Positions 26,936 to 30,469 are shown, numbered from the stretch's first letter. The stretch is DNA of 64,000 nt from an uncultured Gemmatimonadales bacterium (GCA_963821385.1 CAWGDK010000005.1:31538-95537); one strand, 5' to 3'. Translations and numbers: made by a program. The notes: generated by a model not told the origin, from the letters alone.

Positions 26936-28454
26936 CTATCGCTCGTAGGCGCCCAGGTCGGCTCCCTGCCCCCGCGCGCGGCAGAGGCCGTCGATATCGA
27001 ACGGCGCCGCGTACGTCGCATCGGCCTGATCGATAGCGGGGCTTCCGGCCTTCAGATGCAGGTCGTTGGCGTAGGCCTGATGCGTGGTCGACGGGGTGGA
27101 GGCTGTCGGGTTGACCAGGAACGGATCGGCCACGACGTTGCCGACGATGGTGGCATTGGTGTTCCAGTGACTGGTCCCGTCGTTGCCGTTGTTCCAGAAC
27201 ATGTTGTGGATCTCGACATTGCTGCTGCCGCCACTGGATCCGCCGGTATTGATCCCCACCCCGTCGTTCACGTTGCCATTATTGACGACGATGTTGTTCG
27301 CGAACACCCAATCGTGCGTGCTTTCGGCGATGTCCATGCCGGACCGGCCGTTGCCGACGACCGTATTGTTGACGACGAGGATGTGATTCGCACTGAACCG
27401 CGCCGAGAGACCTTTGGCGCGATTGTGCTCCAGCACGTTGTTCGCCACGACCCCTCGGGTCCCGTCGTGATAGTAGATCCCGTGCGATGTGTTTTCCTGA
27501 CTGGGGTCGTTGAACCCGCCGTTGTCGTGGATGTAGTTGCCCAGAATCCAGATGTCGTCCCCCCCGGCCGCGATCCCGGCATGCCAGCCGCCGTGAAACA
27601 CTTCCGAGTTCGATACTTCGATATGGTGGCTGGCCCCCGGATCCATCTGGACCAGGTTTTCTCCCTGCCGGGAGGACGCCCCCCATGGACCACAGCTCGG
27701 GCCCTCGACCACGACACTCGATAGCCGGAAATACGATCCGGACAGTCGAATCTGCCCGTGCAACACGGCGCGTTCCCCGGCATACCCCTGTACCGTGATC
27801 GGCGCCGCGGGCGCTCCCGCCCGTTTGAATGTCGACGCCGTACAAAAGGCGCCGTACGTCCCAGCCCGCAGATACGCGATCTGCCCCGGTTGGAGCGCAT
27901 CGAAGGCCTTCTGCAGTGTCTTCCATGGCGCCTGAAGCGTACCCGGATTGGCATCCGACCCCGCGGTGGCGGAGACGTAAAACGCCGTCCCCGTGGACAA
28001 CGGCATCCGTGGGTAGATCGCACTCGGCCACGGATTGGGGCACCCGGTGGCGGGCGGCGGCGGCGGCGGCGGGGGGGGGCGGCGGGGGCGGCGGTGTCGA
28101 CCCCGTCACCTGCACCGCCGCGGACGCGGATTGATTCTCACAGGTCGCGGTGATTGTGACCGTGCCTCCGGCCATGCCATAGACCAGACCACTGGCATCG
28201 ACGGTGGCCACATTGGGATCGCTGCTGGCCCACGTCACGACGCGGTTCTCCAGCGGCGCGCCGCTCGAGTCCTGGGGGGTGGCGTGCAGCTGCACGCTTT
28301 CGCCCGCCGTCACGGTCGCATCGGCCGGTGTCACGGCGACCGTCGCGACCGGCGGACCCGCAGGCCCCGCCGTGCGATCGAGCACACAGGCAGGCATCAA
28401 CAGACACAAGGCAAGCAGGGTCACAACAACGGTGTGTTGGCGATGCTGAAGCAT
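26936..28454 (-). pseudogene. Big_2 - polyPro - beta-helix lipoprotein (paralog 3), reading frame broken by +1 nt in a C9 run
   Basis: ORF from 28454 gives signal LALCLLMPAC plus a Big_2 domain plus STPPPPPPPP, then nonsense. The beta-helix frame (ORF 26936..28006) is open upstream through PPPPPPPPPATGCPNPW to the same run (28071-28079). The span is 1519 nt = 3n+1. SD GGGAGG lies 7 nt upstream of ATG 28454. Confidence 0.7.
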
Positions 28455-28564
28455 AAACGACCTCCCGCGTCGGCGTGAGCGGCGGTGTGGTGGATGGCCG
28501 ACTTACGGCGGAAGGAAGGCGGACCACGCGGAGCGACCGGCCGCCTCGTCCGACCGAAGTCGAA

Positions 28565-28654
28565 TCGCTGGCGGCCCGGCTGGCCTGGCGGAGACATCCG
28601 CGGTAGCCCCGTGACTCTGCGTCACCGCCTTTCGACGGCTTTGCTCTGAGCAGC
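28565..28654 (-). promoter_or_regulatory. GEMM-I class cyclic-dinucleotide riboswitch aptamer (copy A)
   Basis: Minus strand reads CGCUG-CUCAGA-GCAAA-GCCGUC-GAAA-GGCGGU-GACGCAGAG-...hairpin...-AGCCGGGCCGCC-AGCG. It matches the GCAAA / GNRA hairpin / GACGCAAAGC / AGCCGGGCUGCC blocks of c-di-GMP-I. Covariation is seen against copies B and C. Confidence 0.75.
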
Positions 28655-28673
28655 GTCCTGCTGTGGCAGCTGC

Positions 28674-28712
28674 TCCCACGGCGCGATGCCGCTGCGGCAT
28701 CGCGCCCGTGGG
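28674..28712 (-). terminator. strong GC hairpin immediately after the Big_2-metallophosphoesterase stop
   Basis: CCCACGGGCGCGAUGCC-GCAGC-GGCAUCGCGCCGUGGG on the minus strand (about 16 bp with one bulge). It starts 16 nt after the stop at 28728. No U-tract. Confidence 0.45.
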
Positions 28713-28727
28713 GCAGATTCGTCGTGC

Positions 28728-30146
28728 CTAGTGGCACGTTCCGCTGCCGGTGTCCGTGAACGACTGGCCGGCAACGGGGACAAACTCCCAGGCATAGGTG
28801 CCCGGCCCGAGCGTGAACTTCAGGACCCCAAACGTGGTCCCGTTGAACACCTCACTGTTGGCCAAGGGCGTTCCCTGCCCGTAGTGGCTCTCCCCGCCCG
28901 TTCCGGCAATGAATTCGCGGATCCCGTTGACCGGGTCCGCGTCGCCGCTCGGCGTCTGGAGAGCGAACCGCTCGTAGTTATGCTCGTGACCAGCGAGAAC
29001 GATTTCGGCGTGGAAGTCGTACAGCGCCTGCCACAACGGTTGGGCCGAGCTCAGGCTGCCGTGGTGGCTGCCGCTCGAGAAGCGGGGTTTGTGCCAGTAC
29101 GCCAGCGTGCAGGTTTTGGACGACGCGGCGAGGTCTGCGCGCAGCCACGTCTCCTGCGCCGATCCAGCGCTCATCGACGTTTCGCTATTCAGCGAAACGA
29201 TGTGCCAGTCCCCTAGGTCGTAGCTGTAGTAGCCGCGCCCTGATGGTCCAGCGAGATCGCCGAAGTATCCGTAGTAGCCGGCCGCGCCACTGGTGTTGTA
29301 GTCGTGATTTCCCGGGGCCGGCCGCGTGCGCGTCTTGTGTCGTCCCCAGGTGGGATCGTAGCACTGGGAGAACTGCGAAGCGGTACCGCTGGAGTACACG
29401 TTGTCGCCCAGCGTGTAGACTGTTCCCGGAATGCCGTCGAGCAGCGCCGCGGTGGCCTCATCGTTGTCGTTGCCACAGTCGGAAATGTCTCCGGCGCCCG
29501 CGAAGACGATGCCGCCCGCCGTGCTCATCACAGTCACGCTCGCCGTGTCGGCCAGGGTGCCGCCGGCCTCGAGCGCGATGACGCGGTACGTTCCGGCAGC
29601 GGATCCGGCGGTGTAGAGACCCGTGGCCGTGATCGACCCGCCCGTCGCGTCATAGCTCACCACCGCTGCCACGGAATCACCGTTACTCATCCGGCCGTAC
29701 ACGGCGAACTGTTGCGTGCCGGCGATTGAGACTGTCACGGCTGCCGGCACGAGCACCACCTGCGCGAGAACGGCGGGTCCACTCACCGTGACCGTGACGT
29801 CCGCGGTATCGGCCAGCGTCCCACCCACCTGCGTAGCGATCACTTGATAGGTGCCGGCGACTCCGCCCGCGATGTAGCGGCCATCGGCGTCGATGGTCCC
29901 ACCAGTGGCGCTCCACGCGACGGTCACGGGCTGGGTATCGCCTTGCGCCGTGCGCGCGGCGGCCTCGAACTGCAACGATTGGCCGGCGGGGACATTCGTG
30001 GTTTCGGGTGTGATGACGATTTCCTCGACATCGGTAGGACCGCTGGGTGGTCTGGAGCGCTCGCAGGCGGTCGAGATGGCGATCAGGACGACGAGCGGGT
30101 GCGCGAGCCATGTGCGCCCTCGCGTCCCAGTGCGTAGATGGTGCAT
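28728..30146 (-). CDS. lipoprotein: three Big_2-like modules plus C-terminal metallophosphoesterase (short paralog of the giants)
   Basis: Lipobox LIAISTAC. C-terminal motifs GAGDISDC, LGDNVYSSG, GNHDY, SLNSE, GHEHNYE and a C-terminal SGTCH as in the giants. SD AAGGAGG lies 6 nt upstream of ATG 30146. Confidence 0.85.
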   Translation of the reverse strand: MHHLRTGTRGRTWLAHPLVVLIAISTACERSRPPSGPTDVEEIVITPETTNVPAGQSLQFEAAARTAQGDTQPVTVAWSATGGTIDADGRYIAGGVAGTYQVIATQVGGTLADTADVTVTVSGPAVLAQVVLVPAAVTVSIAGTQQFAVYGRMSNGDSVAAVVSYDATGGSITATGLYTAGSAAGTYRVIALEAGGTLADTASVTVMSTAGGIVFAGAGDISDCGNDNDEATAALLDGIPGTVYTLGDNVYSSGTASQFSQCYDPTWGRHKTRTRPAPGNHDYNTSGAAGYYGYFGDLAGPSGRGYYSYDLGDWHIVSLNSETSMSAGSAQETWLRADLAASSKTCTLAYWHKPRFSSGSHHGSLSSAQPLWQALYDFHAEIVLAGHEHNYERFALQTPSGDADPVNGIREFIAGTGGESHYGQGTPLANSEVFNGTTFGVLKFTLGPGTYAWEFVPVAGQSFTDTGSGTCH

Positions 30147-30165
30147 TGGGCACCTCCTTCACGGG

Positions 30166-30217
30166 ACAACAACGCACGGGCCGCCAACGTCGACCCGTGT
30201 CGAAGCGCTGGCGGCCC
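30166..30217 (-). terminator. putative riboswitch-B expression platform (terminator stem using the aptamer 3' strand)
   Basis: Minus strand GGGCCGCC..UCGAC-ACGG-GUCGA..GGCGGCCC followed by GUGCGUUGUUGU. Confidence 0.45.
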
Positions 30218-30297
30218 GGCCGACCTGGCAGGATGGCTCCCGCGGTAGTCCCGTGGCTCTGCGTCACCGCCTTTCGGCGGCTTTGCTCTGAGCAGCG
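30206..30297 (-). promoter_or_regulatory. GEMM-I class cyclic-dinucleotide riboswitch aptamer (copy B, proximal of tandem pair)
   Basis: Same block structure as copy A. The P2 hairpin is GCCGCC-GAAA-GGCGGU. The P3 helices differ from copy A by compensatory changes. Confidence 0.75.
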
Positions 30298-30339
30298 ATC
30301 GAAGCGATGCGAGGCTGAGTTTCGACTGGACGAGGGCTT

Positions 30340-30388
30340 ACAACGAAAGGGCCGCCCCCTTCGACCAAGGTCGAATCGCTGGCGGCCC
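30340..30388 (-). terminator. putative riboswitch-C expression platform (intrinsic terminator using the aptamer 3' strand)
   Basis: Minus strand GGGCCGCC-AGCGAUUCGACCUUGGUCGAAGGG-GGCGGCCC followed by UUUCGUUGU. Confidence 0.5.
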
Positions 30389-30469
30389 GGCGGGCATGGC
30401 GGAGGAGGATTCCGCGGTAGCCCCGTGACTCTGCGTCACCGTCTTTCGACGGCTATGCTCTGAGCAGCG
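30377..30469 (-). promoter_or_regulatory. GEMM-I class cyclic-dinucleotide riboswitch aptamer (copy C, distal of tandem pair)
   Basis: Same block structure. The P2 hairpin is GCCGUC-GAAA-GACGGU (U-A where copy A has U.G and copy B has C-G). Confidence 0.75.

What the first reader, a model, noticed from the sequence alone, without database searches (positions are those of the whole stretch)
30166..30388. Expression platforms: the aptamer 3' strand competes with a downstream terminator stem (predicted ON switches)
After each aptamer comes a conserved mini-hairpin (UCGAC-N4-GUCGA, with a different loop in each copy). This is followed by GGCGGCCC(G), the exact complement of the aptamer 3' junction strand (C)GGGCCGCC.
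- In copies C and B the resulting long GC stem is followed by a U-rich tract: UUUCGUUGU (+30340-30348) and GUGCGUUGUUGU (+30166-30177).
- The strand needed for P1 and ligand binding is therefore also half of a terminator. This is the standard mutually exclusive design, implying that ligand binding causes read-through (gene ON).
- Copy A has the complementary GGCGGCCGG but no U-tract. It instead has CCUUCCUUCC (+28509-28518), which is complementary to the SD GGGAGG, hinting at translational control.
Basis: partly seen in the sequence, partly recalled or inferred. Interest (0 to 1): 0.6.

Follow-up and report, generated by a model that had tools for sequence, protein, structure and literature searches.

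The report
Terminator-type ON riboswitch expression platforms
Two of three cyclic-dinucleotide riboswitches in this Gemmatimonadota genome end in a transcription terminator that borrows one strand from the sensor, the textbook "ligand turns the gene on" design, so the finding is correct but ordinary.

Summary
Three Rfam c-di-GMP-I (GEMM-I) aptamers lie on the minus strand: A at 28567-28655, B at 30207-30297 and C at 30378-30469. Each is followed by a UCGAC-N4-GUCGR mini-hairpin and then by the complement of the aptamer's 3' strand. In B and C a U-rich tract follows.

I collected 131 non-identical leaders of the same aptamer subclass from 58 of 401 Gemmatimonadota genomes.
- 118 carry GGCGG or GGUGG downstream of the aptamer.
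- The flanking bases pair with the aptamer strand and covary with it (G-C to A-U, and G-C to C-G).
- A U-rich tail follows in 92% of leaders with a stem of at least 7 pairs, against 6.7% of random 10-mers.

So B and C are, with good confidence, transcription-termination ON switches. This is the design shown experimentally for the Geobacter pilM cGAMP riboswitch, here placed in tandem. The mini-hairpin is simply the apical part of the terminator.

Two caveats remain.
- Copy B can also form a 9-bp hairpin (-16 kcal/mol) at the same spot without the aptamer strand. This could blunt its switching.
- Copy A has the complement, with one bulged G, but no U-tract. An anti-SD/SD pairing is predicted, but relatives do not support it.

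All three aptamers carry A at the G20 ligand contact, so the ligand may be cGAMP or c-di-GMP. This is a new member of a known kind, of low to moderate interest.

The parts
30378..30469 (-). Aptamer C (upstream member of the tandem pair). GEMM-I fold with A at the G20-equivalent position. P1 is CGCUG (30465-30469) with CAGCG (30377-30381).
   Evidence: Rfam RF01051, 51.9 bits against gathering score 35. P1 is conserved in 127/131 relatives, with U-A covariation at pair 5.
30381..30388 (-). C: aptamer 3' strand GGGCCGCC (P2 3' strand plus the GCC junction). It doubles as the 5' arm of terminator C.
   Evidence: MFE folds; coordinates.
30360..30375 (-). C: mini-hairpin UUCGAC-CUUG-GUCGAA, the apical stem of terminator C (-5.3 kcal/mol alone).
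   Evidence: A CGAY...RUCG apical hairpin occurs in 65/118 relatives with 54 different loops.
30349..30356 (-). C: terminator 3' arm GGCGGCCC, the exact complement of 30381-30388. The whole terminator is -25.7 kcal/mol.
30340..30348 (-). C: U-rich tract UUUCGUUGU directly after the stem.
   Evidence: (terminator scan).
30207..30297 (-). Aptamer B (downstream member of the tandem pair), A at the G20 position. P1 is CGCUG (30293-30297) with CAGCG (30206-30210).
   Evidence: Rfam RF01051, 55.0 bits.
30206..30219 (-). B: aptamer 3' strand CCGGGCCGCCAGCG (P2 3' strand, GCC junction and the whole P1 3' strand). It is the 5' arm of the long terminator.
   Evidence: MFE folds; coordinates.
30190..30203 (-). 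B: mini-hairpin UCGAC-ACGG-GUCGA (-4.7 kcal/mol). It stacks on top of the long terminator stem.
30177..30189 (-). B: terminator 3' arm CGUUGGCGGCCCG. The long terminator, including the mini-hairpin, is -37.2 kcal/mol.
30166..30177 (-). B: U-rich but interrupted tail GUGCGUUGUUGU (6 U of 12).
30175..30199 (-). B: alternative short hairpin CACGGGUCG-ACGUUGG-CGGCCCGUG (9 bp, -16.1 kcal/mol). It uses the same 3' arm but no aptamer strand, and it is mutually exclusive with the mini-hairpin.
   Evidence: Terminator scan; still formed when the aptamer is enforced; energy; recurs in about 25-30 relatives.
30144..30160 (-). B: SD GAAGGAGG (30153-30160) and the ATG (30144-30146) of the 472-aa Big_2/metallophosphoesterase lipoprotein gene (ORF 28728-30146).
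28567..28655 (-). Aptamer A, with A at the G20 position. P1 is CGCUG (28651-28655) with CAGCG (28566-28570).
   Evidence: Rfam RF01051, 56.9 bits.
28537..28579 (-). A: terminator-like hairpin without a U-tract. CCGGGCCGCC (28570-28579) pairs with GGCGGCCGG (28537-28545) with one bulged G. The mini-hairpin UCGAC-UUCG-GUCGG (28550-28563) sits on top. Energy is -25.8 kcal/mol. The tail is UCGCUCCGCG.
28508..28519 (-). A: CCUUCCUUCC (28510-28519). In the MFE its 3' part, CCUUCCGC (28508-28515), pairs with the SD region.
28452..28468 (-). A: SD region GCGGGAGG (28461-28468) and the ATG (28452-28454) of the Big_2 (then frameshifted beta-helix) lipoprotein gene.

Best explanation
Copies C and B are two complete riboswitches in series in one leader. 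Each is a GEMM-I-type cyclic-dinucleotide aptamer followed by its own intrinsic terminator.

The 5' arm of each terminator is the 3' strand of the aptamer. It comprises the P2 3' strand and the GCC junction that holds the ligand-pairing C. In B it also includes the whole P1 3' strand.

Proposed mechanism (inferred, not measured):
- Without ligand, the downstream arm (CGUU)GGCGGCCC(G) zips onto the aptamer strand, starting at the base of the pre-formed mini-hairpin. This builds a long GC stem next to a U-rich tract, and RNA polymerase terminates.
- With ligand bound, P1, P2 and the junction are locked, the 5' arm is unavailable, and the polymerase reads through (gene ON).
- The mini-hairpin is the apical stem of the terminator. 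It shortens the loop and nucleates the invading helix.
- Both terminators must be passed to reach the Big_2/metallophosphoesterase gene. The tandem arrangement should therefore give a steeper dose-response than a single switch.
- Only about 16-20 nt separate the end of the aptamer from the invading arm, so the decision is expected to be kinetic (co-transcriptional).

Copy A keeps the complement in degraded form (one bulge) and has lost, or never had, the U-tract. If it regulates at all, it most likely does so through an anti-SD (CCUUCCGC) / SD (GCGGGAGG) relay. This is weakly supported.

The ligand is a cyclic dinucleotide. All three aptamers have A at the G20 contact, so it is 3',3'-cGAMP, or c-di-GMP through bispecific binding.
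For: Shown by tools:
- Three RF01051 hits, with A at model position 11.
- The MFE of the B and C leaders is the aptamer-strand/complement stem with the mini-hairpin on top. Forcing the aptamer costs 7.8 kcal/mol for C and 21.1 kcal/mol for B.
- The subclass pattern occurs in 58/401 Gemmatimonadota genomes (about 110 matches), with none in the reversed-pattern control.
- Of 131 unique leaders, 118 have GGCGG/GGUGG within 95 nt.
- Anchoring only on that pentamer, the flanking pairs form in 115/118, 111/118 and 102/118 leaders.
- There are compensatory changes: A-U 14 against G-C 81 at pair -2/+2 (Fisher 6.5e-7), and C-G 8 at pair -3/+3 (Fisher 5e-7).
- The count of structure pairs gives 27 double-changed cells against 9.2 +/- 2.6 in shuffles (0/500). 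Cells paired are 79.6%, against 21-55% when partners are slid.
- A U-rich tail (at least 4 U in 10) follows 111/121 stems of at least 7 pairs; genome background is 6.7%.
- The median terminator energy is -30.8 kcal/mol.

From the literature:
- The pilM cGAMP riboswitch is a transcriptional ON switch. Its aptamer and terminator are mutually exclusive, and its terminator sequesters the ligand-pairing C (PMC9262584).
- Tandem c-di-GMP-I riboswitches are common: 347 doublets and 12 triplets. They are expected to give more digital control (PMC9481103).
- A at the G20 position gives cGAMP or bispecific binding (PMC6140456).
Against:
- B's U-tract is interrupted (GUGCGUUGUUGU), and several B-type relatives have poorer ones still.
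- In B, a 9-bp, -16.1 kcal/mol hairpin forms with the same 3' arm even when the aptamer is enforced. Termination might therefore be partly ligand-independent.
- RNAfold does not recover the native aptamer fold on its own, so the energy differences are only indicative.
- For A, the SD is still partly paired in the aptamer-enforced fold. Unpaired probability is 0.01 in the full-length ensemble against 0.29 with the aptamer sequestered.
- A's three nearest relatives show no consistent effect (0.09 to 0.37, 0.30 to 0.33, 0.28 to 0.28).
- A cGAMP synthase could not be established. One GGDEF has Ser at the Hypr position. But that position is variable among its orthologs, and they co-occur with the riboswitch in only 7 of 58 genomes.
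Confidence: 0.75

Rival explanations
1. Copy B is not a clean ON switch. The short hairpin CACGGGUCG/CGGCCCGUG (30175-30199) forms whether or not ligand is bound. B would then act as a constitutive or only weakly ligand-modulated attenuator, and real control would rest on copy C. Alternatively, the short hairpin is a deliberate third state.
For: - The terminator scan finds exactly this hairpin.
- It is still predicted when the aptamer is enforced.
- Its energy is -16.1 kcal/mol, against -4.7 for the competing mini-hairpin.
- The same alternative recurs in about 25-30 of 118 relatives.
- The loop bases complementary to the arm are associated with the arm sequence: 19/30 against 2/22, p = 1.3e-4, not corrected for phylogeny.
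Against: - The long terminator is much more stable (-37.2 kcal/mol), and it is the form that covaries across the family.
- In many relatives the short hairpin ends 2-3 nt before the U-tract, where it should terminate poorly (examples such as L144, L197).
- Selection keeps an intact aptamer in B at 55 bits, which would be pointless if B never switched.
- Copy C has no such alternative (-5.0 kcal/mol).
Confidence: 0.15
2. The GC hairpins do not act as intrinsic terminators in this high-GC organism. Instead they control translation, Rho access or mRNA stability. Ligand would still favour the aptamer over the hairpin, so the switch is still ON, but at another step.
For: - B's tail and those of several same-genus relatives are poor U-tracts, for example UGUCAUUCCUC.
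- In some relatives this tail pairs with the SD (L029 fold).
- B's SD begins 6 nt after the tail.
- The hairpin after the phosphoesterase stop codon has no U-tract.
- Copy A has a hairpin without a U-tract, plus an anti-SD.
Against: - Across the family the tail is U-rich in 92% of cases against 6.7% background. At least 5 U in 10 occurs in 80% against 1.5%. That implies selection for a U-tract, the hallmark of intrinsic termination.
- Copy C's terminator lies 42 nt upstream of a second aptamer, not of an SD, so it cannot act on translation.
- SD accessibility in B does not change between the two states in silico: 0.31 against 0.30.
Confidence: 0.08
3. The complementarity is a chance by-product of GC-rich, low-complexity leader sequence or of recent duplication of the three copies, with no regulatory role.
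For: - The three window copies are paralogs sharing long identical stretches.
- Mononucleotide shuffles of GC-rich downstream sequence already give runs of about 6 pairs.
Against: - The observed median run is 10 pairs, against 6.3 in shuffles.
- The pairing is kept in 118 leaders from 28 genera, with compensatory changes and slid-register controls far lower.
- There is a U-rich tail at a fixed position.
Confidence: 0.01

Closest known systems
Geobacter metallireducens pilM 3',3'-cGAMP riboswitch (GEMM-Ib), a transcriptional ON switch
   Same: - GEMM-I fold with A at the G20-equivalent contact.
- Aptamer and intrinsic terminator are mutually exclusive.
- The terminator pairs with the aptamer's 3' strand, including the C that Watson-Crick pairs with the ligand.
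- There is only a short window between aptamer completion and terminator invasion (PMC9262584).
   Different: - Different phylum: Gemmatimonadota rather than Desulfuromonadota/Geobacter.
- Conserved apical mini-hairpin inside the terminator.
- Copy B has an extra aptamer-independent hairpin.
- Ligand specificity is untested here.
- The downstream genes are Big_2/metallophosphoesterase and beta-helix lipoproteins, not pili or cytochromes.
c-di-GMP-I riboswitch family (Rfam RF01051; Vc2, Cd1)
   Same: All three copies score above the family's gathering threshold over the full model, with the GAAA tetraloop hairpin, the GACGCA junction and the P2 hairpin.
   Different: - A instead of G at the Vc2-G20 contact, and GACGCAGAG instead of GACGCAAAG.
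- Cd1 is an OFF switch whose terminator coexists with the aptamer, whereas here the two exclude each other.
- G20-type relatives in the same order mostly place the SD within 0-20 nt of the aptamer, with no terminator.
Tandem same-class riboswitches, each with its own expression platform (tandem c-di-GMP-I doublets and triplets; the Bacillus thuringiensis triplet)
   Same: Two complete aptamer-plus-terminator units in series ahead of one gene. This arrangement is common for this class (347 doublets) and is expected to sharpen the response (PMC9481103).
   Different: Nothing essential. Within the genus the tandem is seen only here and, with a decayed second aptamer, in one other genome (L046).
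Adenine (pbuE/ydhL) riboswitch, the archetypal terminator-disruption ON switch
   Same: Same logic: the terminator's 5' arm overlaps the aptamer's 3' half, and ligand binding prevents the terminator from forming (own knowledge).
   Different: Unrelated aptamer fold and ligand.

Membership tests
c-di-GMP-I / GEMM-I riboswitch aptamer (RF01051) | Covariance-model score above the curated gathering score over the full model | tested here: met
   56.9, 55.0 and 51.9 bits against 35, model positions 1-87 of 87.
c-di-GMP-I / GEMM-I riboswitch aptamer (RF01051) | G at the Vc2-G20 ligand contact (canonical c-di-GMP selectivity) | tested here: not met
   Model position 11 is A in all three copies. The genome's fourth copy, on contig 8, has G.
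c-di-GMP-I / GEMM-I riboswitch aptamer (RF01051) | Binds c-di-GMP with high affinity | not testable with these tools
   Needs in-line probing or ITC.
GEMM-Ib (3',3'-cGAMP riboswitch) | A at the G20-equivalent position within a GEMM-I fold | tested here: met
   The role of this position is described in PMC6140456 and PMC9481103.
GEMM-Ib (3',3'-cGAMP riboswitch) | Selective binding of cGAMP over c-di-GMP | not testable with these tools
   Natural A20 variants can be bispecific.
GEMM-Ib (3',3'-cGAMP riboswitch) | A cGAMP synthase (Hypr GGDEF with Ser/Thr at the Asp position plus GGDEF, or a DncV-like enzyme) in the same genome | tested here: inconclusive
   - One of 7 GGDEF domains (contig 2, 48194-49336) has N-x8-S and GGDEF.
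- The position is variable in its orthologs.
- Those orthologs co-occur with the riboswitch in only 7 of 58 genomes.
- SMODS/CD-NTase hits exist on contig 5, about 555-556 kb; their product is unknown.
- The genome is 79% complete.
Intrinsic-terminator ON expression platform (pilM / pbuE type) | GC-rich hairpin immediately followed by a U-rich tract | tested here: met
   - C: 8 bp plus apical hairpin, then UUUCGUUGU.
- B: 13-15 bp plus apical hairpin, then an interrupted tail.
- Family-wide: 111/121 against 6.7% background.
- Copy A does not meet this; it has no U-tract.
Intrinsic-terminator ON expression platform (pilM / pbuE type) | The terminator's 5' arm is part of the ligand-stabilised aptamer, so the two structures are mutually exclusive | tested here: met
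   The arm covers the P2 3' strand, the GCC junction and (in B) the P1 3' strand.
Intrinsic-terminator ON expression platform (pilM / pbuE type) | The terminator helix is supported by covariation | tested here: met
   27 double-changed cells against 9.2 +/- 2.6 in shuffles, 0/500; Fisher p about 5e-7 at two pairs. These tests are not phylogeny-corrected.
Intrinsic-terminator ON expression platform (pilM / pbuE type) | Ligand-dependent read-through | not testable with these tools
   Needs a transcription assay.

The most novel reading that the evidence does not exclude
The A20-type switches mark a cGAMP-like (or second cyclic-dinucleotide) signalling regulon in Gemmatimonadota. No such signalling turned up for this phylum in my literature searches. 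In this reading the regulon is separate from the G20-type c-di-GMP switches of the same genomes.

A sub-lineage that includes copy B would use a three-state platform. A decoy of the aptamer strand (CGGGUCG, mimicking CGGGCCG) competes for the terminator's 3' arm.

The A20-to-G20 heterotypic tandems seen in relatives would then be natural two-input gates for two dinucleotides.
Probability: 0.2. Interest if true: 0.6.

Novelty: new member of a known kind. Interest (0 to 1): 0.3.

Why it matters
The finding gives a sound functional annotation. The Big_2/metallophosphoesterase lipoprotein gene is predicted to be switched on, in a steep tandem-gated way, by a cyclic dinucleotide in an uncultured soil Gemmatimonadales bacterium.

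The family-level data come from 131 leaders in 58 of 401 genomes. They show that this subclass almost always uses the terminator-disruption ON design. That makes it a clean natural set for studying how expression platforms coevolve with an aptamer strand.

The mechanism itself is textbook. What could be of wider interest is the ligand (cGAMP or c-di-GMP in a new phylum) and the odd extra hairpin in copy B. Both need bench work.

Tried and rejected

2. Cognate cGAMP synthase.
- A regex scan and a PF00990 search found 7 GGDEF domains.
- One has Ser at the Hypr position with GGDEF.
- The position is variable in 30 orthologs (S, T, Q, L, A, E).
- The orthologs co-occur with the riboswitch subclass in only 7 of 58 positive genomes.
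- I rejected this as evidence for cGAMP.

3. Translational relay for copy A.
- The predicted SD accessibility changes in the right direction in A (0.01 to 0.29).
- It does not change consistently in the three closest relatives, which also lack the GGCGGCC complement.
- I kept this only as a weak hypothesis.

4. Extended P1 in B. An upstream UCGA could pair with the UCGA of the mini-hairpin arm and so explain the short hairpin. The upstream sequence is not conserved in B-type relatives (AGAU instead), so I dropped the idea.

5. Contrast with G20-type leaders using a U-rich-window count. This was uninformative, because their start codons lie within 0-40 nt and the windows fall in coding sequence. 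Only the qualitative difference is used: the SD is adjacent to the aptamer.

6. Sigma-70-type promoter scan around the leaders: none found. The promoter type of this phylum is not covered by the scan.

7. The primary GEMM-Ib papers (PMC4418906, PMC4418907) are not held. Published Geobacter sequences could not be retrieved from the papers that are held, so there is no direct alignment to Gs1761 or pilM.

Full report
**What is there**

The window carries three matches to Rfam RF01051 (c-di-GMP-I / GEMM-I aptamer) on the minus strand. They are A at 28567-28655 (56.9 bits), B at 30207-30297 (55.0 bits) and C at 30378-30469 (51.9 bits), against a gathering score of 35.
- C and B lie in tandem, 42 nt apart from C's tail to B's P1. 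They precede ORF 30146..28728, a 472-aa lipoprotein with Big_2 repeats and a calcineurin-like metallophosphoesterase domain.
- A precedes ORF 28454.., a Big_2 lipoprotein that runs out of frame into a beta-helix ORF.
- The genome is a 79%-complete MAG. Its relatives are titled Gemmatimonadota / Gemmatimonadales.
- All three aptamers have A at model position 11, the equivalent of Vc2 G20. A fourth copy on another contig has G there.

**Checking the observation**

Reading the minus strand gives the following.
- C: GGGCCGCC (30381-30388), then AGCGA, then UUCGAC-CUUG-GUCGAA (30360-30375), then GGG, then GGCGGCCC (30349-30356), then UUUCGUUGU (30340-30348).
- B: CCGGGCCGCCAGCG (30206-30219), then CU, then UCGAC-ACGG-GUCGA (30190-30203), then CGUUGGCGGCCCG (30177-30189), then UGCGUUGUUGU.
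- A: CCGGGCCGCC (28570-28579), then UCGAC-UUCG-GUCGG (28550-28563), then GGCGGCCGG (28537-28545), then UCGCUCCGCG.

CCUUCCUUCC is at 28510-28519, one base off. A's complement needs one bulged G.

Unconstrained RNAfold gives the aptamer-strand/complement stem, with the mini-hairpin on top, as the MFE and centroid for B and C. Hairpin energies are -25.7 (C), -37.2 (B) and -25.8 (A) kcal/mol. Enforcing the Rfam aptamer structure plus a 5-bp P1 (CGCUG/CAGCG) costs 7.8 (C), 21.1 (B) and 5.2 (A) kcal/mol relative to the MFE.

**Is it more than chance? Comparative evidence**

GEMM-I hits occur in 38 of 61 close relatives. They fall into two classes.
- A G20 class (..GACAAAGGCAAACC..GACGCAAAG..CCGAA). 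Its SD and start codon mostly follow within 0-20 nt.
- An A20 class (CGCUGCUCAG-A-GCAAAG..GACGCAGAG..GCCGGGCCGCCAGCG). The three window copies belong to this class.

A pattern specific to the A20 class matched in 58 of 401 Gemmatimonadota genomes (28 of 147 genera), with about 110 matches. The reversed-pattern control gave none. After fetching the flanks I had 131 non-identical leaders.
- 118 of them have GGCGG or GGUGG within 95 nt downstream.
- Anchoring only on that pentamer leaves the flanking columns unselected. The three pairs outside it then form in 115/118, 111/118 and 102/118 leaders.
- When the aptamer strand reads GAG instead of GGG, the partner is U in 14 of 18 cases, against 16 of 97 otherwise (Fisher 6.5e-7).
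- When it reads CGG, the partner is G in 8 of 10 cases (Fisher 5e-7).
- On a condensed alignment, the count of structure pairs found 79.6% of cells paired, against 21-55% with partners slid by 1-3 columns.
- It found 27 doubly changed cells against 9.2 +/- 2.6 in column shuffles (0 of 500 as high). The covariation score was 0.139 against 0.110 (0 of 500). These tests do not correct for phylogeny.
- The 10 nt after the stem hold at least 4 U in 111 of 121 leaders with a stem of 7 or more pairs, and at least 5 U in 97. The matching rates for random 10-mers of this 67%-GC genome are 6.7% and 1.5%.
- The median terminator energy is -30.8 kcal/mol.
- P1 (CGCUG/CAGCG) is kept in about 127 of 131 leaders, with C-G to U-A changes at its fifth pair.

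The same aptamer positions also pair inside P2. One strand therefore coevolves with two partners, which is the signature of mutually exclusive structures.

**The mini-hairpin**

A CGAY..RUCG hairpin lies between the two terminator arms in 65 of 118 leaders, with 54 different loops. Other leaders have a different apical hairpin (for example ACUCGAG..CUCGAGU, or GAUCCCG..CGGGUC) or none.

It always sits at the top of the terminator. In B it is separated from the lower stem by a 2-nt bulge. I read it as the apical stem of the terminator. It forms first, shortens the loop, and lets the 3' arm start zipping at its base, into P1 and then the junction and P2. This step is inference.

**Mechanism and the known parallel**

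The terminator's 5' arm contains the P2 3' strand, the GCC junction (by alignment, the C that pairs with the ligand's G) and, in B, the full P1 3' strand. Ligand binding should therefore withhold it: an ON switch.

This is the design worked out for the G. metallireducens pilM cGAMP riboswitch. There, aptamer and terminator are mutually exclusive. Binding is lost once the terminator pairs with the ligand-contacting C75. The binding-competent window is about 25 nt (PMC9262584). Here the window is 16 nt (B) to 20 nt (C), so kinetic control is expected (inference).

Tandem c-di-GMP-I switches with separate platforms are the most common tandem type, at 347 doublets and 12 triplets. They are expected to give sharper responses (PMC9481103).

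**Complication in copy B**

The terminator scan and the aptamer-enforced fold both return a different hairpin: CACGGGUCG-ACGUUGG-CGGCCCGUG (30175-30199).
- It has 9 bp and -16.1 kcal/mol.
- It uses the same 3' arm and tail.
- Its 5' arm comes from the loop and 3' arm of the mini-hairpin (-4.7 kcal/mol), not from the aptamer.

So B could terminate to some degree regardless of ligand.

The feature recurs. About 25-30 of 118 leaders keep such a hairpin of -11 to -13 kcal/mol. The three loop bases before GUCG are complementary to the arm in 19/30 leaders when the arm continues CCG, against 2/22 otherwise (p = 1.3e-4, uncorrected). In several relatives it ends 2-3 nt short of the U-tract, where it should terminate poorly. 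C has no such alternative (-5.0 kcal/mol). I cannot decide between a relic, a basal attenuator and a designed third state.

**Copy A**

A has no U-tract.
- In the MFE, CCUUCCGC (28508-28515) pairs with GCGGGAGG (28461-28468).
- With the aptamer enforced, the anti-SD moves onto GGACGAGGCGG. But the SD is then partly paired elsewhere.
- Mean unpaired probability of the SD is 0.01 in the full-length ensemble against 0.29 with the aptamer sequestered.
- Its nearest relatives (L033, L035-3848, L036-3519) lack GGCGGCC. They show changes of 0.09 to 0.37, 0.30 to 0.33 and 0.28 to 0.28.

The translational reading is possible but weak.

**Ligand**

A at the G20 position is the hallmark of cGAMP-sensing or bispecific GEMM-Ib RNAs (PMC6140456; PMC9481103). 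I looked for a synthase.
- One of 7 GGDEF domains has the Hypr-like Ser with GGDEF (signature from PMC6456294).
- The residue is variable among orthologs, and the orthologs do not track the riboswitch (7 of 58 genomes).
- SMODS/CD-NTase hits exist elsewhere on the contig.

The ligand remains open.

**Verdict**

The ON-switch interpretation is supported for C and for the class, and probably holds for B. A is unresolved. This is a new member of a well-known kind.

Noticed in passing
Loci L124, L126, L146, L166, L170, L176, L189, L191, L193, L214, L216, L232, L238, L241 (other Gemmatimonadota genomes): Heterotypic tandems. An A20-class riboswitch with its own terminator is followed about 60-90 nt later by a G20-class GEMM-I aptamer (GCGACAAAGGCAAAC..). 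If the two classes read different dinucleotides, this could be a natural two-input gate.
   Followed up: no
G063:C3:4762-5153 and G063:C36:1993-2384 (L127, L155, L156); doublets in G143:C21 and G098:C2: Homotypic triplets and doublets of A20-class switches spaced about 157 nt apart, most units followed by a GGCGG arm and a U-rich tail.
   Followed up: partly
Downstream of most A20-class leaders in relatives (listing): The regulated genes very often begin M-[PT]-F-x-[FH]-K-L-[SA]-x-R-L-A. This is a conserved N-terminus of an uncharacterised protein family. The two window genes do not share it.
   Followed up: no
window 30175-30199 (-): CGGGUCG, in the loop and 3' arm of B's mini-hairpin, mimics the aptamer strand CGGGCCG. 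It can take the terminator's 3' arm in a -16 kcal/mol hairpin.
   Followed up: partly
window 30160-30167 (-) and the P2 5' strand of aptamer B (-): GUCCCGUG, just before B's SD, is complementary to the P2 5' strand CACGGGAC, which is freed when the terminator forms. The full-length MFE pairs them. The significance is unknown.
   Followed up: no
window 27279-28454 (-) and 26936-28006 (-): The gene after aptamer A goes out of frame after about 130 residues, at a poly-Pro run, into Arg-rich nonsense. The beta-helix domain continues in another frame. This is either a frameshift or an assembly error at a homopolymer.
   Followed up: partly
window ~28674-28712 (-): A roughly 16-bp GC hairpin follows the phosphoesterase stop codon with no U-tract, 19 nt before aptamer A. 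A may therefore sit on the same transcript as C and B.
   Followed up: no
G000:C8:124549-124626 (L001): The genome's fourth GEMM-I copy is G20 type (GGCACACC..). It has no terminator and a distant SD, a different platform from the three A20 copies.
   Followed up: partly
G000:C5:555084-556525 (outside the window): Two or three adjacent SMODS/CD-NTase-like matches, possibly a CBASS-type locus.
   Followed up: no
G000:C2:48194-49336 (outside the window): A membrane-anchored GGDEF protein with Ser at the position that is Asp in canonical cyclases and Ser in Hypr (cGAMP-making) GGDEFs. The position is variable among orthologs.
   Followed up: yes
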